A stretch of DNA of 63,999 nucleotides, counting the filler, from Collodictyon triciliatum (taxonomy: Eukaryota): the NCBI GenBank assembly GCA_043381765.1. It is 12 parts of 12 records of this genome, joined end to end, with 100 filler letters (N's around TTAATTAATTAA, not from the genome) between each part and the next. Parts side by side here need not be neighbours in the genome. Positions count along the whole stretch, not along the records: positions 10,822 to 16,129 come from JBHJMP010005305.1; 11 more parts are not named here. One strand, written 5' to 3'. Position numbers and translations under genes: made by a program. Below the pieces are notes generated by a model, which made no database searches, was not told the origin of the DNA, and saw nothing but the letters and a program-made list of their open reading frames with translations. Every line of letters starts with the position of its first letter. Position 1 is the first letter of the stretch. Shown here piece after piece: positions 6,548-16,129 of the stretch.

Positions 6548-9540
6548 ATTTCTATACTTTGTTTCCTTACTTTCCCCCGCCTTCATTACTACTCTATAGC
6601 ATTTTGTGTTTGTCTCGTCGATTCAAGACAATGATGATATTTATTGATTTAGTATTATTCACCGGTGTATATATGAAACATTTGGATTGCTCACAGATAA
6701 TTACTTTCTTTTCTTCTCCTTTCCTTTTCTTTCTTTTCTTTTGTTTTCTTTTGTTTTCTTTGTTTGTTTGTTTGTTTGTTTGTTTGTTTGTTTGTTTGTT
6801 TGTTTGTTTGTTTGTTTGTTTGTTTGTTTGTTTGTTTGTTTGTTTGTTTGTTTGTTTCTTTCTCTCTTTCTTTCTTTCCTTCTTGTCTCGTTCACACATC
6901 TCCTTCAACTATTCGGACATGAAATGAAACTACACCGATTTACTTCTTGGATTCAAAGACAATCGTAACGACAGCATCGAGCAGACTTTGAATGCGAAAA
7001 AACCTGCCAGCGCATCGGGTACTGCGGAGGAAGAAAAGGAAAAAGTAGACAACTCAGAATCTCGCTTCATGACCTTTGATGATATTGCTGACAGTCTCGC
7101 GAGCCTGACCCCGAAACTGAAGTTTGGCTTTGACACTGAGACAGAGCAGCCTAAAGACCATGTTGAAAATGAAGAAAGTAGGATACTGAAGGAGTCAGTA
7201 TTTGAGGATTGGCCACTCCCTATAATTCATGACCCCCCAAGAAACTCGTACCAGCTCGCCGCATTGATTGCAAGCAATCCTGAAAATACTTCACTCAAGA
7301 AACGTGCCATTCGCCTGGTCTCATCGTTCATGTCGCAATCCATTCTCAACGAAGAGAATCTAACGGAGGTATGCGCTTTGGTCCATTCAAAGGACAAGGA
7401 AGTAGTTGATAGGCTAGCCTCTGCCATCGGGCGACGTGTGGGTGTTTCTATGGAGTCCTTACCAAGGATTTTGGAGTCACTATGCTATTTTCTCCGATTT
7501 GCACCAAACGACTGCTCTGACAGCATCCTCACAACCGCCATTCTAGATTCCCTTCTGGGTCGGCTCTCAGACTTATACTCCTGTGAGGAGGAGGTGATCG
7601 AGACTCTCGTCACTACATTGACACAGATTATGATGTTCTCTCTCGACCTCGGTATTGCTGGTGTTCCAAAGTCAAAGTTTGACGAGTACCGACTGACATT
7701 CGATGAGTCATGGCTAGCGAGGGTATGGAATAAAGGCATGAGGGTATGTGATAGCCTGGAAGATAAAGCAAGAGAAAAAGCGCAAGATGCAAAGAAAGCC
7801 GCTTTTACTGAGGCTTTGAAGAGAATCGGAAGCAATGAAAATGCAGCCAGTCGAGGTGTGGGCCTGGTTCGTACTTTCACCTTTGGTCTCTTCCACGCCG
7901 CCCGCTCCATGGTTGCTCTTGATCTAGAATCAACGTTGGATTCATTTGACAACTTGTACGAGACGTTCAGCTCACTCAACATTGAGGAGGCGTGGTTTGA
8001 AGTCTACTCAAGTTTCCGGCTGTTTCTATTGAAGAAGACGGAACTCGCCCGAAAGTTCTGGGATGACATCATCGGCAAAAGTTCTTTTGGTGCGAATGAA
8101 TGGATGTGTTTCTTGGTAGCAGAACTGTTTTGTGACATCTTTGCCAGCACATATAAAGGGCAGGACAGGAGAGACCTGCTTTCCCTCTTTCTTCATATCC
8201 AGTCGCACAAATCATGGCCATCATCTGATTTGCTCAAGTTCCACGTAAGCTCCATCACTACAAAGATGCAGTCGTTTGCCCCGCCCGTCCTGGAGCCAAC
8301 ATCCTCAAAGCTATTAGAGATGTCTGCAAAGGAAGGATGCACCATTGAGCAGGTTATCCACAGCATCATGGAGCTGACCGCAGGCGACTCTGCGCTAGAG
8401 GAACCTTGCGAGATATATATCCCACTCAGCGCACAAGTGCAAGGAGATAGCAAAGAGAGCACGGAGGCAAAGGACGCAGCCGATGTTGTGTGCGCTTTCG
8501 TTCAAGACACAAGCACAAACAAGCGGCTTCTGGAGGTTGTCGGGGAAGCAGGAAGCGGCAAGAGTGTGCTCCTGCAGCAGGTTGCCAAGCGCCTCTGGGC
8601 GTGCTACAAAGCAGGCAACGCAATCCCACCCATCTACACGAGCCTGCAGTTGCTAAAAAGTCCGCGCGAGAACCTCGTGAGCCAGCTGTTGAAGACGCCC
8701 TTCAAGAACGGGATGAAGCAGGCCCGAGATGTGTGCTTCACCGACGACCAGGTGGCTCTGCTCCAGTCCGAGGCGTGGCCTCTTGTCTTTTTCGTGGACG
8801 ACTTTGACGAACTGGACCACACCGCCGCCTTCTCGGTGCTCAAGATGGATCTGCAAGACTGGCCGAATGCAAGGTTTGTCCTCGCCGCGCGCTGTCCTCT
8901 CCTGGACGGCGAGTCAAACCTTGCGTGCTTCGCGTCCCTTGCGGACAAAGCAGCCTTGCTGCCCTTCACTGAGCACCAGCGCCAGTTGTTCTTTGACGAG
9001 CACGCAAAGAGGCATATGCGTGCGGGGTGGGACTCGGGCGCGGCCTACGAGCAGCGTCTTGGCGAGCAGCCTGCTTTTGCAGCCGCATCTCGGCTTCCGC
9101 TCTTTGCGTCGGTCATTGCATCGGCGTTGCCCGCCGTCGCAGAACGTGCGGCCAAGCAATCTGCCTCTGGTTCATGGGAGGCGCTTCTGCAGGCTGCTTT
9201 GGTGGATGTGTGCATCGAAAGACAGGAGCAGCGCATCCGAGTCAGGCGTCTGCCTCTGCCTCCGGATTTCCCATCGCACTTTGGAGCGCACCTTCGCCGC
9301 TTCTGCAGAGACGTCGCCCTGTTGATGCAGTCACGCTGTGCCGATCACTCGGACCCGCATCTCCGCTACGAGTGGGACGCCTTCGAGAAGAAGTCTTCTG
9401 CGCCCGAGCTCGACCGATTCTTCGGGCCCGTTTCGCCCTCAGTCGAGATTCTACGCCGGGCTGCGCCTATGGTCAAGGCCTCGCCGTCGACCGTCAAGTT
9501 TGCAAGCAAAGTCTTTTATGATTTCTTTGTGATGTCGTAG
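5608..9540 (+). CDS. STAND-class NACHT NTPase with N-terminal coiled-coil/ARM-like helical region and no C-terminal sensor repeats
   Basis: Exon 1 5608-6490 and exon 2 6959-9540 are joined by a phase-compatible G|GTCTTT...AAAG|AC intron (about 1154 aa). Walker A is VVGEAGSGKS and Walker B is VFFVDDFDEL. YIPLSAQ precedes the NTPase, and the winged-helix end motif KFASKVFYDFF sits just before the stop. Confidence 0.8.
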
Positions 9541-10821: not shown

Positions 10822-10920
10822 ATACATACATACATACATACATACATACATACATACATACATACATACATACATACATACATACATACATACATACATA
10901 CATACATACATACATACATA
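10822..10920. repeat. (TACA)n microsatellite
   Basis: Read directly. The same motif occurs at 43250-43350 and, as (GTAT)n, at 59442-59530. Confidence 0.95.
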
Positions 10921-12069
10921 CTATGACTTTGCTTATATTCGAACCTTGATGTTCCGCAGATGGATATGTAATGTATGTTTTGTGGGGTGCGGAACATCAC
11001 AGCAAAAATAATAAATTGATATTAATACGAATAAAGGAAAAATTGATATTAATATTTAAAATTAATTATTATACGTGTAGAGACTCGAAAAAAAACATGT
11101 GGGTCTAGGTAATTTGTATGCTTACATCATTTATGTGCTCTACCGCTTCTGTGCTTCATAATTTTTTGATGTGCAATTTAGATCTTACTGCGGCGTCTAT
11201 TTATGTTAATAATTAATCATCATGTTCGTATGAAGGAAAAAATTTAATCAACGCGAAATTTTGCGATTATATAAATGCATAATCGTAATTTTTAACTCAT
11301 ATAATAGAGCGGAACGGCCGTGAGTTTATTCTTCACCAGGATTTTTTTAGTTCTGGATTGAGCTCATGTCGTTTTCTTTTGGTTAGATTAACCTTACATA
11401 GGGTGATATTATCTTCAAAAGTTCTTCTCATCATCCTATAGTGCAAAAGAGTGAAATCTGAATTATGATTCCCTATCGAAAGTTACTGCGGCCACAGTCA
11501 GCTCTCATTAGACATATACAACCACTTTACATCACACCCAATATTTTATTTTTTTTGATTAAAGGAAGGAGGGGTTTTTAGATTTTTCTACTGCCCGAAA
11601 TAATTTTTTTGCTCCTTGTTTATAGCAGTGACGCGTGTCGGTTAAGGGTGCTGGCCGGAATGACATGGAAACTGGATTCATTGCTCAGCACTATGCACTC
11701 ACACTTGCATTTATAGTTAAAAATTCTTGAATATTTCATTATTTTTGCTTCGTGTTTGAGACGATTCAGGGGTTCAAATTAAAATTTTTTTTACATAAAA
11801 TTGTATTTTCTTTTAAATAATCTCATTCTTAACTATTTTATTATTAATACCATCATTTATTTTGAGGCGTGAATTTTCACTTATTTAATTACCTTTTAAT
11901 TTGTTTATCTGAAATTTTGTAACAGTACAAACCAAAACTGCTGGATGCAATTTCTGATAACCGACTACTTCTCAATCATCCTAACAGAATTGGATTCCAT
12001 GCAAATGGAGGCTGGTGAATCAAGAGAAAATCCCTCTAATAATTCACATGTTTAAAAATATTTCTTTAA

Positions 12070-12563
12070 AAAAAATTACCCTGAATTAACCCTAACAAAA
12101 TAGCAATATTTAGGATTTACTGTAAATAATTCATTATGTATATCTATTTTAACTTTCATTTCCTAAAATACATATTTCTAAAAAGTTCATAATTTCAAAA
12201 ATTTCAATTTTTTATGTAATAAAAATCTTAAACTTAATAACTTTGTAAATAATGAAGCGTAATTCCATGCACAATTGATAAAATATATGCAAGGTCATTA
12301 ATTAAATGCATGGGCTACTATTCATTACTGGCATTATTAAATTTATGAATTTAAGTCAAATAGATGCCTGATACAAATTCAAAAATAGTTTTTGCATACT
12401 TCAACTGATATTTTTTTAATTCATGCACGCGAATATTTTAACAATTATAAATAATACTGGTTTATTTTTGCTATTACCTCCTTTGTACAATTATCATAAT
12501 TAAATAATGTTTAAATGGAAAGAAAAATTAGGGTACTAAATTTTTTTGTCAGGGTAATTTTTT
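12070..12563. mobile_element. possible MITE/foldback-like element bounded by inverted repeats
   Basis: A perfect 15-bp inverted pair AAAAAATTACCCTGA (12070-12084) / TCAGGGTAATTTTTT (12549-12563) and an inner pair ACCCTAA (12089-12095) / TTAGGGT (12528-12534) enclose an AT-rich non-coding interior. Confidence 0.4.
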
Positions 12564-13644
12564 GTAAATTATTTACTGTAATATTATTATTATTTAAAAC
12601 TTTGATTATTCATGACATAATAACATTATATTGGATAGTTATTTCCATATTTTAATTAATCTTCATACTATTTTCAATATAGTTTTATTATTGAGTATAA
12701 TATCACTATCTGACTTCAAAATCTCATCGAATTTAATGTCAATGTATTCACTATAAAAGACAAGATCAAATATCAATACAATCGAAATTTTATTGATTCC
12801 ATGGGTGAAATATTAAATGGTTCAATATTATGTAATCTAAAAGTTCATTTATAAAAATTTTACTAACTTATTATAAAGATCAAATTTTGTTACCACCTGA
12901 TTTGATTAGTTCCATCATTTCCTTTTTGGGAAAGTGATATAATTAAACATGAATTAATTATAAAATTCCAATATGGTATTAGATGTATTGCATTATAATT
13001 TTTTTAGAGAATGAATACATAGGTTTATTTAATTTTTGAGACATATCTCTATACTGCTAAAATTTCATTTATAAACATGGGCAGACAATATAAGCTTGTT
13101 TCAATCTTTCTTGGCTAGTTCAATACCTATCATTGAGAAATTTATCACTAAGATATTTATTTGTTAAAGATAAATGTCTTTTGAAACCAAATTCTTAAAT
13201 TTATCAACTGAATTTTTCCTAATTAATTACTCGCGATGACGTTTACAGACGTAAAAAAATATAGATTTCAATATCATAAAAAAACATAATTGACAACCAT
13301 TCAAACTGTGCTGAAAAATTATTTGGAATCTTTTCATAACGAAACTTGATTTTTAATATTGACATAATTTTTAGTCCCTAGTCGATTTTTCAATAAACAT
13401 ATTTTAAATGGGGCAATTTATGTAAAAGCAATAGATATTTAAAATAAAAATATTTTGTAATAGCTCAGAGATAACATTTAAATCTCATGAATATTCTTCA
13501 TTAAATAAATAGGCATAATTTTACTTTTATGCGTTTTTTTAACGAAGGAAATCAATCTAGTGCCATTTATTGGCCATTAAGATCGACTCAAATGACTATG
13601 ATTTTAAAATTTAAATCAATATAATTAATAGATAAAAATACAGA

Positions 13645-16129
13645 ATGAAGACAAATTTTAAGTCTACAGCAGCTCTTTTTCTTATAAGTATATGATATAT
13701 TCAAAATTAATAATATTTCATTATATATTTAAATTAAATATATGATTAATAATTATATTGTCGTTAGGATTTATCATCTATGGTCAATTTTATGGGGTTG
13801 AAGGGCAGAACTATCTAATTCAAACGTTTACAGGTCACAACGGCGTTATATGGAGTGTTGCTATTACTTCTGATGGGTCTAAAATTGTTTCTGGAAGTCA
13901 CGATACTACAGTTAAAATTTGGAATTTTACTGATGGAACCTTGATTCGATCGTTGAATGGTCATACTTTAGCTGTTTGGGGTGTTGCTATTACTTCTGAT
14001 GGGTCTAAAATTGTTTCTGGAAGTGAAGATAGAACAGTTAAAATTTGGAATATATCAACTGGGGAGCTAATCAAGTCATCGATGGGTCATAAGTATGATG
14101 TATTTTGCATCGCTATTACTCCTGACGATTTTTACATAATTTCTGGAGGCTATAAAGAACTAAAAATCTGGACTTTTGATTCCTTAGTAATTATTCGTTC
14201 GTTGCCTGGTCTTACAGATTGGGTTACATGTATCACTGTTACCCCTGATAATTCAAGAATTGTATCTGGAAGTTACCAAACTATTGATATTTGGGATATT
14301 TCTAACGGAAAATTAATTCGATCGCTTCCTGGTGATTCCGATTATGTTCGAAGCGTTGCAGTTACACCTGATGGCTCAAAAATTGTGTCCGGAGGCGATG
14401 AGATCATCGTTAAAATTTGGAATATTCATGATGGAACTTTGATTAAATTTTTGAGAGGCCATACCACTTGGATATCAAAGGTTTCTATTGACCCTGATGG
14501 ATCAAAAATACTTTCTTCAAGTGCTGATAGTACAATCAAAATGTGGAATATTTATGACGGAGCTTTAATGAACTCACTTATTGGACACTCAAATGTTGTT
14601 TATTGTGTTACTTTTACTCCCGATAATTCAAAATTTATCTCTTCGGGTGATGCTGCAATCAAAAAATGGGGAGTCTGCTCTTCTGGTTACATTTATGATT
14701 TAAAGTCAAAATCATGTATAATTTGTCCCATTGGAAGCTACAGTAGCATTGGAAGTATGTCTTGTTCTATGTGTCCAGCTGGCACTTTTAATGACATCAA
14801 TGGTCAGTCATCCTGCAAAACATGTTTACCAGGAACATACAATCCATATATTGGTCAAAATTCTTGCATTTATTGTCCAGCAGGAACATTCAACCCATCA
14901 TCTGGGTCGGTGAATCAAACATCGTGCCAATTGTGTCCGTTAGGGACGTTTAACCCTTCCATAGGATCGACAGCTAAAAGTTCATGTCTTTTTTGTGCAT
15001 CAGGATCTTATAACCCATATGTCGGTCAGTCATATTGCTTGCTGTGTGCAGAAGGGACTTATAATCCATCACAAGGTTCTGAAAGCTCAAAATCTTGTAT
15101 TTCTTGCCCAGCTGGTACTTATAGTCCTTCAATGGGACAAAGCAGTTGTATTTTATGTGAATCTGGTTTCTACAACCAAGAGCCAGGAAGAAGATTCTGC
15201 CTACCATGTCAACCAGGAACGTACTCCAATTCCTCTTTTTCAACTAGATGTGAAGAATGCCCATCTGGTTCTTATAATCCAAATGTTGCATCAGCCAGTA
15301 TAAGCAGCTGTCAGCCGTGCCCTAAAGGAAGGTTTTCATCAAAATCTGGCGAATCAACTTGTGAACTTTGTATACCTGGTACATACAATTCTCTAGTAGG
15401 CCAAACTCAATGCTTCAAATGTGATATAGGATCATATAATCCAAAATTTGGTTCCAGTAGCATTAATTCTTGTGAGAAATGTCCGCAGGGTACCTATGGA
15501 AGCAGAAATGGAGATGATTGCACACCATGTTCTGTCGGAACATTCAACAATAAAACTGGTTCATTTAATGAATCATCATGCATTTCATGCTCCAATGGAA
15601 GCTACAGCTCAGAAAGAAGCTCATCATGCAGTCTATGCTTATCAGGATACTATCAAAAAGAAGGAATCACGAAAGACTCAAAATCATGCTATGCTTGTCC
15701 AGAAGGCACATTCAACTCAAACTCCGGCTCATATGGCAACAAATCATGTATTAAATGTCCACAAGGTACTTGGAATGATAAGGATAGTCAAGCATCATGC
15801 ACATCATGTCCAGCTGGTACATTCAACAATAAAACTGGCTCATTCAATCAATCTTCGTGCATATCATGTCCGAATGGTAGTTACAGCTCAGAAAGAAGCT
15901 CTTCATGCGGTTTATGCCCTTCAGGATATTATCAAAAAGAAGGTATCACAAAAGATTCAAAATCGTGTTATGCTTGTCCAAAAGGCACATTCAACTCAAA
16001 CTCCGGCTCATATGGAAACAGGTCATGTACTGAATGTCCACAAGGTACTTGGAATGATAGAAATGGTCAAGCATCATGCACGTCATGTCCAGCTGGTACA
16101 TTCAACAATAAAACAGGCTCATTCAACCA
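13645..16129 (+). CDS. signal peptide + 7 WD40 repeats + Cys-rich GCC2/GCC3 (ephrin-receptor-like) repeat stalk; 3' truncated by contig end
   Basis: Exon 1 13645-13687, intron GTATAT...TTAG 13688-13767 and exon 2 from 13768 give MKTNFKSTAALFLIRFIIYGQFYGVEG/Q. Seven GH...W repeats follow, then many CxxCPxGT(Y/F)N repeats. Confidence 0.88.
15537..16129 (+). repeat. 279-bp (93-aa) near-identical tandem coding repeat in the Cys-rich stalk
   Basis: GG(A/T)ACATTCAACAATAAAAC starts at 15537, 15816 and 16095. The contig breaks in the third copy. Confidence 0.9.

What the first reader, a model, noticed from the sequence alone, without database searches (positions are those of the whole stretch)
13645..16129. 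Apparently extracellular WD40 propeller on an ephrin-receptor-like Cys stalk: candidate variable surface-receptor family
Seen: a spliced N-terminal hydrophobic leader, exactly 7 WD40 repeats, and a direct fusion (IKKWGVCSSGY...CIICPIGSY) to a long run of CxxCPxGT(Y/F)N repeats. The WD scaffold is regular, but residues right after GH (NGVIWS, TLAVWG, KYDVFC, TDWVTC, SDYVRS, TTWISK, SNVVYC) and in the second loop (SHDT, SEDR, GYKE, SYQT, GDEI) vary and include several aromatics. Known: canonical GH-WD repeats are almost always intracellular, GCC2/GCC3 repeats are disulfide-bonded extracellular modules, and similar top-face positions determine specificity in fungal HET-E/HNWD receptors. Inference: an NLR-style WD40 sensor has been moved outside the cell as an antibody-like recognition or adhesion head. 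Two members in 12 size-sorted contigs suggest a large family.
Basis: partly seen in the sequence, partly recalled or inferred. Interest (0 to 1): 0.85.

Follow-up and report, generated by a model that had tools for sequence, protein, structure and literature searches.

The report
Secreted WD40 propeller on cysteine-rich stalk
Two related genes of an AT-rich microbial eukaryote seem to send an ordinary, normally intracellular WD40 propeller out of the cell on a long disulfide-rich stalk, an unusual domain combination that looks like an adhesion or binding protein, not an antibody-like variable receptor.

Summary
Gene A (13645-16129, contig 3) encodes a short hydrophobic leader (needs one 80-nt GT-AG intron), exactly 7 canonical WD40 blades and, without a linker, 26 CxxC..G.Y modules (Pfam Ephrin_rec_like, 14 stretches). 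It runs off the contig inside a 279-bp tandem repeat. Gene B (40322-43149, contig 8) supports it independently. It has an intronless signal-peptide-like leader, 21 WD40 blades (three propellers), and the same conserved junction into the same cysteine modules.

The propeller model is confident and matches solved WD40 propellers at 1.0 Å. The stalk's closest solved relative is the disulfide-laddered rod of the Chlamydomonas mastigoneme protein Mst1.

New here: the N-terminal propeller of both genes has an aromatic-rich top face (12 of 14 blades, against 28% in relatives). B's other two propellers have none.

The "NLR-style, antibody-like" reading is not supported. The repeats are not homogenised, top-face changes do not exceed silent changes, and no NACHT domain is present. 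Signal-peptide-like leaders in front of canonical WD40 arrays also turned out to be frequent among bacterial relatives.

I found no WD40 plus Ephrin_rec_like fusion elsewhere, but those searches were limited. The C-terminus, the anchor and expression remain unknown.

The parts
13645..13687 (+). Gene A exon 1: start codon plus the first 14 codons and one base of the hydrophobic leader
   Evidence: Sequence read. Best of 14 in-frame GT-AG exon-1 models. The leader holds the most hydrophobic 11-residue window of the protein (2.28, against at most 1.53 elsewhere). No RNA support was available.
13688..13767 (+). Gene A intron (inferred), 80 nt, GT..AG, 11% GC
   Evidence: Without it the frame has no ATG before blade 3. 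With it, the first GH lies about as far from the N-terminus as in gene B (residue 37 against 35).
13768..13826 (+). Gene A: end of the leader and the N-terminal strand that closes the last blade
   Evidence: The AF2 model has a strand at model residues 16-21, before the first GH. Its role as a 'velcro' closure is inferred from general WD40 topology (my knowledge).
13827..14669 (+). Gene A WD40 propeller, 7 blades, aromatic residue at top-face position 7 or 9 in 7 of 7 blades
   Evidence: Pfam PF00400, 7 stretches, E 1.7e-51. Repeat HMM finds 7 units. AF2 pLDDT is 87-98 over model residues 21-300. Foldseek best match 7big_A, TM 0.97, rmsd 1.0 Å. Aromatic counts.
14670..16129 (+). Gene A cysteine-rich stalk: 26 CxxC..G.Y modules (Ephrin_rec_like), cut off by the contig end
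   Evidence: PF07699, 14 stretches, E 1.6e-77. 53 Cys with regular spacing. PDB sequence match to mastigoneme Mst1 8tx1_A, E 3.4e-35.
15519..16126 (+). 279-bp tandem repeat (2.2 copies, 87% matches) inside the stalk; the contig ends in the third copy
   Evidence: TRF. Between copies dS is 0.59, dN 0.072 and dN/dS 0.12.
40322..40417 (+). Gene B leader: ATG, positively charged start, 13-residue hydrophobic core, small residues before the first blade; no intron needed
   Evidence: ORF listing. Best 11-residue hydropathy window 2.59, against at most 1.71 elsewhere.
40418..43021 (+). Gene B: 21 WD40 repeats (three 7-blade sets). Aromatic top-face residues in 5 of 7 blades of the first set and 0 of 14 in the other two
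   Evidence: PF00400, 20 stretches, E 3.1e-187. Repeat HMM finds 21 units, one of them weak. Aromatic counts.
43022..43149 (+). Gene B junction and first cysteine modules, cut off by the contig end
   Evidence: PF07699 on the last 45 residues: E 3.1e-7, 30.5 bits against a cut-off of 23.1. The junction aligns with that of gene A.

Best explanation
Genes A and B are paralogues in an AT-rich eukaryote with the standard genetic code. They encode proteins of the secretory pathway.

A cleavable-looking N-terminal leader takes the chain into the ER. The mature protein starts with one (A) or three (B) ordinary 7-bladed WD40 propellers. It continues without a linker into a long, rigid, disulfide-laddered rod of Ephrin_rec_like modules.

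The chain leaves the last blade after its third strand, at the bottom face. The top face of the propeller therefore points away from the stalk. In both genes the N-terminal, most distal propeller carries a ring of aromatic residues on that face. I read this propeller as the ligand-binding head, for adhesion to or recognition of an extracellular partner, possibly a glycan or a peptide. I read the stalk, and B's two further propellers, as a spacer.

Shown: domain content, order, junction, fold, and purifying selection. Inferred: the splice in A, export, the orientation of the head, and the binding function. Unknown: the C-terminus (membrane anchor, GPI, kinase or none), the ligand, and expression.
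For: - The architecture is found twice independently: leader, then WD40, then cysteine modules, with the junction conserved at 30 invariant of 74 columns.
- The leader is the only strongly hydrophobic segment in each protein. B's leader lies in one continuous ORF starting at an ATG.
- Both reading frames are long and unbroken (786 and 942 codons). They are under purifying selection: stalk tandem copies have dN/dS 0.12, and the closest WD repeat pairs have dN 0.14-0.30 against dS 0.5-1.1.
- The propeller is canonical: pLDDT above 90 for 258 of 417 modelled residues, and TM 0.97 with rmsd 1.0 Å to 7big_A, followed by 2ymu, 5yzv, WDR61 and WDR5.
- The stalk is homologous to the disulfide-laddered 'SD' rod of the extracellular mastigoneme protein Mst1 (E 3.4e-35; paper passages). 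It is more distantly related to ELAPOR1 and a TNF receptor.
- Aromatic residues at top-face positions 7 or 9: A 7 of 7 blades, B propeller 1 5 of 7, B propellers 2-3 0 of 14, and 979 of 3469 (28%) repeats of database relatives. The binomial P for 12 or more of 14 is 1.3e-5.
- N-x-S/T sequons right after the WD tryptophan occur in 9 of 28 repeats, against 33 of 950 in relatives. This is compatible with glycosylation of the stalk-facing side.
- Six 151-nt pieces with 0-1 differences to gene A occur in metagenomes of three studies. The coding DNA therefore exists outside this assembly.
Against: - No SignalP or DeepTMHMM could be run. My leader test is a hydropathy heuristic.
- A's leader has an arginine in its hydrophobic core and depends on an intron with no RNA support. 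A rival 46-nt-intron model would give a start without a leader.
- The blades carry no disulfides (0-1 Cys per blade), unlike the extracellular CRINKLY4 propeller, which has one per blade.
- The C-terminus is missing in both genes, so a surface anchor is not shown.
- The repeats are related by duplication, so the aromatic and sequon statistics overstate independence. AT-rich coding also raises Asn content.
- The stalk part of the model is unreliable (pLDDT 33-64). The head orientation therefore rests on textbook WD40 topology, not on the model.
Confidence: 0.6

Rival explanations
1. It is a structural subunit of an extracellular filament, hair, coat or scale (mastigoneme-like), not a receptor. 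The rod polymerises and the propellers mediate subunit contacts.
For: - The only strong solved relative of the stalk is the filament-forming mastigoneme protein Mst1 (E 3.4e-35). Its cysteine-rich tandem forms a disulfide ladder that stiffens the filament (passages).
- B carries three propellers in a row, of which only the first has an aromatic-rich top face. That would suit a scaffold.
- The stalk is under strong purifying selection (dN/dS 0.12).
Against: - Mst1's N-terminal part is nine Ig-like domains followed by a polyproline helix. Neither is seen here.
- Similarity is limited to the generic cysteine modules, which also occur in many receptors (ELAPOR1 and TNFR hits; LRR-bearing Phytophthora proteins).
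- Nothing here speaks on polymerisation.
Confidence: 0.2
2. One reading: a large, fast-diversifying family of antibody-like surface receptors built from an NLR-type WD40 sensor.
For: - Two members lie in 12 contigs.
- The most variable repeat positions are the top-face ones.
- The closest single-propeller relatives (37-43% identity) include proteins whose N-termini look like STAND/TIR starts; I read this by eye and did not test it.
- A lake-water metagenome holds diverged (about 86% identical) copies of stalk and WD pieces. These may be further paralogues or related species.
Against: - No NACHT or NB-ARC domain lies in front of the repeats.
- The repeats are 56% (median) to 82% (maximum) identical at nucleotide level, so there is no concerted evolution as in fungal HNWD genes.
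- Top-face non-synonymous change does not exceed synonymous change.
- A and B are old paralogues (47% identity).
- Family size cannot be counted.
Confidence: 0.08
3. It is not exported: a cytosolic protein, a pseudogene or an assembly chimera. On this view the hydrophobic N-terminus is coincidental and the CxxC modules bind metal.
For: - No RNA evidence is available.
- Both genes are truncated.
- A rival exon-1 model without a leader exists for A.
- No environmental contig bridges the WD/cysteine junction.
Against: - The same junction in the same frame occurs on two independent contigs at 42% identity.
- Both frames are long, open and under purifying selection.
- B's leader needs no gene model.
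- The cysteine modules match families and structures that are extracellular and disulfide-bonded.
Confidence: 0.07

Closest known systems
Plant CRINKLY4/ACR4 receptor-kinase ectodomain (bioRxiv 10.1101/2020.08.10.245050; passages read)
   Same: Signal peptide, then an N-terminal seven-bladed propeller (called a WD40 domain there), then a cysteine-rich TNFR-like domain. The propeller is proposed as the ligand-binding platform.
   Different: - CRINKLY4 blades are each pinned by a disulfide and are not GH-WD repeats in sequence. Here the blades are canonical WD40 (Pfam PF00400) without disulfides.
- Its cysteine-rich domain is a single domain of about 90 residues, not an array of 26 or more modules.
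- Its transmembrane helix and kinase cannot be checked here, because the C-terminus is missing.
Chlamydomonas mastigoneme protein Mst1 (PDB 8tx1; PMC10602792, passages read)
   Same: The stalk modules are homologous (E 3.4e-35, four stretches over chain residues 1212-1816). In Mst1 they form an extracellular disulfide ladder spaced about 11 Å apart.
   Different: Mst1 has nine Ig-like domains in front and a polyproline-II helix behind, and it polymerises into a filament. Here the head is WD40, and nothing is known about assembly.
Signal-peptide-bearing WD40 arrays of Planctomycetota and other bacteria (library proteins such as P0138, P0168, P0221)
   Same: A leader is followed within a few dozen residues by canonical GH-WD repeats, often 14-43 of them. 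This is the same N-terminal layout as gene B.
   Different: They are bacterial and have no cysteine stalk (0 of 150 have 3 or more modules). Their function is unknown, and their export is predicted only by my heuristic.
Ephrin_rec_like (GCC2/GCC3) surface proteins of protists and oomycetes (e.g. P0121 and P0122 of Phytophthora, with LRR heads)
   Same: Long arrays of the same cysteine modules, combined with a different N-terminal binding domain.
   Different: None of the 24 cysteine-module-rich proteins fetched has a WD repeat.
Fungal HET-E/HNWD and bacterial STAND-WD40 proteins
   Same: The same consensus-like, highly regular WD40 repeat type, with variability concentrated at top-face positions.
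   Different: Those proteins are cytosolic and have an N-terminal effector plus a NACHT/NB-ARC domain. The fungal ones have near-identical repeats under concerted evolution (recalled knowledge). Here there is no NTPase, and repeats are at most 82% identical.

Membership tests
WD40 repeat / 7-bladed beta-propeller (Pfam PF00400) | Tandem units of about 40 residues with GH and WD signatures that score above the Pfam threshold | tested here: met
   Gene A: 7 stretches, 170.9 bits against a cut-off of 27. Gene B: 20 stretches, 599.6 bits. My repeat HMM finds 7 and 21 units.
WD40 repeat / 7-bladed beta-propeller (Pfam PF00400) | Closed seven-bladed propeller fold | tested here: met
   AF2 pLDDT is 87-98 over model residues 21-300. 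Foldseek TM 0.97 and rmsd 1.0 Å to the 7-bladed 7big_A; WDR5 gives TM 0.88-0.92.
Ephrin_rec_like / GCC2_GCC3 cysteine repeats (Pfam PF07699) | Repeated CxxC..G.Y-type modules scoring above the Pfam threshold | tested here: met
   Gene A: 14 stretches, 255.5 bits against 23.1, and 26 modules by pattern. Gene B, last 45 residues: 30.5 bits.
Secreted or type I surface protein | N-terminal signal peptide (charged start, hydrophobic core, small residues before the cleavage site) | tested here: inconclusive
   A hydropathy heuristic only. B looks canonical. A depends on an unverified intron and has an Arg in its core. No SignalP was available.
Secreted or type I surface protein | C-terminal transmembrane helix or GPI signal | not testable with these tools
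   Both genes run off their contigs. No genome is held. No environmental contig extends the end.
CRINKLY4-type receptor kinase | One conserved disulfide per propeller blade | tested here: not met
   The repeats have 0-1 Cys each, at a buried-strand position. The feature is taken from passages of the preprint.
CRINKLY4-type receptor kinase | Transmembrane helix and cytoplasmic kinase | not testable with these tools
   The C-terminus is missing.
HET-E/HNWD-type NLR (STAND-WD40) | NACHT/NB-ARC NTPase N-terminal to the repeats | tested here: not met
   Blade 1 starts 33-35 residues after the start codon in both genes. Pfam finds no NTPase in A or B.
HET-E/HNWD-type NLR (STAND-WD40) | Near-identical repeats with hypervariable codons under positive selection (defining feature recalled from the literature, not from a call) | tested here: not met
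   Maximum 81.7% and median 56.1% nucleotide identity between repeats. Top-face non-synonymous change is 0.25-0.65 per site and scaffold synonymous change is 0.33-0.62 per site.
Mastigoneme protein Mst1 | Nine Ig-like domains before the cysteine-rich tandem and a polyproline-II helix after it | tested here: not met
   The N-terminal part is WD40 only. The region after the stalk is not available.

The most novel reading that the evidence does not exclude
A little-sampled eukaryotic lineage has taken the canonical cytosolic WD40 propeller into the secretory pathway. It uses the propeller as the binding head of a multigene family of stalked surface receptors. The head has an aromatic ring on the outward-facing top face, sequons on the stalk-facing side, and a cysteine-module stalk that expands by tandem duplication. 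This would be an independent invention of a propeller-based extracellular recognition system, whose members differ in propeller number and top-face residues to recognise different prey, mates or microbes.
Probability: 0.12. Interest if true: 0.8.

Novelty: new variant of a known kind. Interest (0 to 1): 0.55.

Why it matters
WD40 is one of the commonest eukaryotic domains, and it is treated as an intracellular scaffold. A canonical, disulfide-free WD40 propeller working outside a eukaryotic cell would widen that picture.

The propeller-on-cysteine-stalk design is otherwise known from the plant CRINKLY4 receptors. Seeing it again with a different kind of propeller would suggest that the design has arisen more than once.

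The aromatic-rich top face gives a direct, testable handle on ligand binding.

The side observation also matters: many bacterial WD40 arrays carry export-type leaders. The 2017 survey of prokaryotic WD40 proteins does not mention this (the term 'signal peptide' occurs 0 times in its main text). It deserves its own check.

Tried and rejected
- Whole genome: none is held. Paralogues could not be counted and the C-terminus could not be recovered.
- RNA: no RNA holder was listed among 3 runs, so the intron and expression remain untested.
- Laying three metagenome runs: only short pieces were laid. The stretch 14628-15059, which holds the junction, has no cover, and nothing runs over the contig end.
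- Search for the same fusion elsewhere. All of the following were negative, and all were limited.
  - Word-indexed protein searches: 120 listed of 1607 hits; 4 hits of 215 candidates; 16 hits of 457 candidates with a junction profile and 'longer' lengths.
  - 0 of 136 proteins then held had both motif kinds.
  - 0 of 8 metagenome loci had a stalk match.
  - 0 of the 150 best of 521,274 HMMER hits had 3 or more cysteine modules.
  - 0 of 24 cysteine-module-rich proteins had a WD repeat.
  - Two Atlas look-ups gave only WD40 clusters, at scores of 0.87 or below.
  - Repeat-rich giants crowd the top of every list, so a rare fused relative could easily be missed.
- Literature. 'Ephrin_rec_like' plus 'WD40' gave 1 unrelated paper. 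'extracellular WD40' gave 2 papers. WD40/GCC2/signal peptide/extracellular gave 428 papers holding 3 of the 4 terms, of which I saw 15 in the listing. None describes this fusion. Supplements were not seen.
- Earlier-findings look-ups by place and by sequence found nothing.
- Considered and dropped:
  - Bacterial origin of the contigs. Their kilobases of 24%-GC DNA without ORFs, their microsatellites and the need for an intron argue for a eukaryote.
  - Ciliate-type genetic codes. There are no in-frame stops in 786 and 942 codons.
Full report
**What the window is.** The 63,999 bases are 12 contigs of about 5.3 kb, joined by N-TTAATTAATTAA-N linkers. Their GC content ranges from 0.31 to 0.48. 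The finding lies in contig 3 (10822-16129, GC 0.31). No whole genome is held for the window.

**Checking the observation.**
- From 13770 to 16127 the + strand is open for 786 codons.
- Pfam finds WD40 (PF00400, 7 stretches, E 1.7e-51) followed by Ephrin_rec_like (PF07699, 14 stretches, E 1.6e-77).
- A repeat HMM built here finds exactly 7 WD units.
- The cysteine part present (489 residues) has 53 Cys in 26 CxxC..G.Y modules, with Cys spacings alternating 3 and 13-17.
- The two parts are fused without a linker. The tryptophan that ends blade 7 lies three residues before the first stalk cysteine.
- The contig ends inside a 279-bp tandem repeat (2.2 copies, 87% matches). That probably explains why the assembly broke there.

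**The leader and the intron.**
- Without splicing there is no in-frame ATG before blade 3.
It is in frame.
- Of the 14 in-frame GT-AG models possible within about 870 nt upstream, it gives the most hydrophobic N-terminus.
- It also puts the first GH at residue 37, against residue 35 in the paralogue.
- It remains a model, because no RNA run was listed. An alternative 46-nt intron would give a start without a leader.

**The second member settles most doubts.**
- Contig 8 carries one uninterrupted ORF from an ATG at 40322 to the contig end at 43149.
- The ORF has a charged start, a 13-residue hydrophobic core and small residues before blade 1.
- Then come 21 WD units (Pfam counts 20). That is three sets of seven.
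- It ends with the same junction and the first cysteine modules (PF07699, 30.5 bits on the last 45 residues).
- A and B are 47% identical over a propeller. At the junction they are 42% identical, with 30 invariant of 74 columns.
- In each protein the leader is the only strongly hydrophobic stretch. The best 11-residue windows score 2.28 and 2.59, against at most 1.53 and 1.71 elsewhere.
- A fusion that recurs in frame on two contigs at this divergence is not an assembly chimera.

**Is it a working gene?**
- The two full copies of the 279-bp stalk repeat differ by dS 0.59 but dN 0.072, giving dN/dS 0.12.
- The closest WD repeat pairs have dN 0.14-0.30 against dS 0.5-1.1.
- Six 151-nt pieces with 0-1 differences to gene A occur in lake-water, groundwater and subsurface metagenomes from three studies. 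None bridges the junction.

**Fold.**
- An AlphaFold2 model of 417 residues, from a shallow 10-row alignment, gives pLDDT 87-98 for model residues 21-300. It has a strand before the first GH and four strands per repeat.
- The stalk part is unreliable (pLDDT 33-64).
- Foldseek against the PDB puts 7-bladed WD40 propellers first. 7big_A gives TM 0.97 and rmsd 1.0 Å at 39% identity. Next come the Nostoc repetitive propeller 2ymu, Thermomonospora PkwA 5yzv, WDR61 and WDR5.
- The head is therefore a thoroughly ordinary WD40 of the consensus-like, highly regular type.

**The stalk.**
- By sequence, its closest solved relative is the Chlamydomonas mastigoneme protein Mst1 (8tx1_A, E 3.4e-35, four stretches over residues 1212-1816). 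ELAPOR1 (3.4e-8) and a TNF receptor (5.8e-4) follow.
- In Mst1 this cysteine-rich tandem is extracellular. It forms a ladder of disulfides about 11 Å apart that stiffens the filament (PMC10602792, passages).
- If the geometry is similar, the up to 26 disulfides seen here would make a rod of roughly 30 nm. This is inference only.

**Variability of the repeats.**
- Across the 28 repeats, the most variable positions fall in three places. These are 2, 5, 6, 7 and 9 (after GH), 25 and 27 (the SxDxT turn), and 34, 35 and 38.
- This is also the usual WD40 pattern. Hu et al. 2017 describe high diversity at the predicted interaction hotspots of otherwise conserved repeats (passages).
- The repeats are not homogenised. 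The best pair is 81.7% identical at nucleotide level and the median is 56.1%.
- In the 12 closest pairs, non-synonymous differences at six top-face positions (0.25-0.65 per site) are no higher than synonymous differences in the scaffold (0.33-0.62 per site).
- Nothing here resembles the concerted evolution with hypervariable codons of fungal HNWD genes (recalled knowledge). No NTPase domain precedes the repeats.

**Two features I did not expect.**
- Aromatic top face. Aromatic residues at positions 7 or 9 occur in 7 of 7 blades of A and in 5 of 7 blades of B's first propeller. They occur in 0 of 14 blades of B's other two propellers, and in 979 of 3469 (28%) repeats of the database relatives held. 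The binomial P for 12 or more of 14 is 1.3e-5, and for 0 of 14 it is 0.01. The repeats are not independent, so these figures are descriptive. They suggest that the N-terminal propeller is the functional head and that B's further propellers are spacers.
- Sequons. An N-x-S/T sequon directly after the WD tryptophan occurs in 9 of 28 repeats, against 33 of 950 in relatives. By textbook WD40 topology (my knowledge) this loop lies on the bottom face. The chain also leaves the last blade there, into the stalk. The aromatic top face would then point outward and any glycans toward the stalk. AT-rich coding inflates Asn, so this is weak support.

**Is the premise right that WD40 stays inside cells?**
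- A profile of the four propellers was searched against 1.84 billion representatives and gave 521,274 hits.
- Of the best 150, 30 have a signal-peptide-like leader by my heuristic, and 21 have the first WD repeat within 70 residues of the start.
- The named cluster members belong to Pirellulaceae and Planctomycetaceae.
- Exported canonical WD40 arrays therefore seem common in bacteria. The 2017 survey does not use the term 'signal peptide'.
- For eukaryotes I know of no characterised case. CRINKLY4's 'WD40' propeller is extracellular, but it is disulfide-pinned and not a GH-WD sequence.

**Is the fusion known?**
- I found no relative that combines WD repeats and these cysteine modules. The searches were made, the Atlas look-ups, and the paper searches.
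- These searches are blunt, because repeat-rich giants fill every top list.
- Together with CRINKLY4, this makes 'propeller head on cysteine-rich stalk' a known kind. The present genes are a variant in which the head is a canonical WD40.

**Verdict.**
- Export of the WD40 head is likely but unproven.
- The binding-head reading is favoured (0.6) over a filament or coat subunit (0.2).
- The antibody-like or NLR-derived reading is unsupported (0.08).
- An artefact or cytosolic reading is unlikely (0.07).
- The C-terminus, the ligand, the family size and expression are open.

Noticed in passing
library proteins P0138, P0142, P0144, P0168, P0221, P0256 and others (no window coordinates): Of the 150 best WD40-array representatives, 21 carry a signal-peptide-like leader directly before canonical GH-WD repeats. 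Named cluster members are Pirellulaceae and Planctomycetaceae. Exported bacterial WD40 arrays look common and little discussed.
   Followed up: partly
window 6928-9537 (+), contig 2: An 870-codon open frame with a weak NACHT match (PF05729, E 1.3e-7) lies in a contig of GC 0.48 (0.54 locally). That is much higher than contigs 3 and 8, so the contigs of the window may not all come from one organism.
   Followed up: no
window 10822-10930 and 43250-43330: Contigs 3 and 9 both begin with the same short-period microsatellite; one frame of both reads as the same four-residue repeat. This hints that the two contigs share a genome with long repeat-rich non-coding stretches.
   Followed up: no
window 31346-31738 (+), contig 6: A short open frame with a WD40-like strand-C motif ending in FWD. 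It is probably an exon of an unrelated, ordinary WD40 gene.
   Followed up: no
window 13851-14125: Blades 1 and 2 of gene A form a 126-bp tandem pair, 76-81% identical by TRF. A 42-nt core is identical by eye, and the differences are concentrated in the loops. It is the only sign of a recent repeat duplication in the propeller.
   Followed up: partly
window 15686-16119 and 13854-14444: A lake-water metagenome holds contigs about 86% identical to the stalk repeat, and one WD piece joined in another order ('goes back 591'). These may be further paralogues or a related species.
   Followed up: no
window 10931-13644 and 37852-40321: About 2.5 kb upstream of each gene has no open frame longer than 114 codons, and GC is about 0.24 around 12-14 kb. 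The intergenic regions are large and AT-rich for a microbial eukaryote.
   Followed up: no
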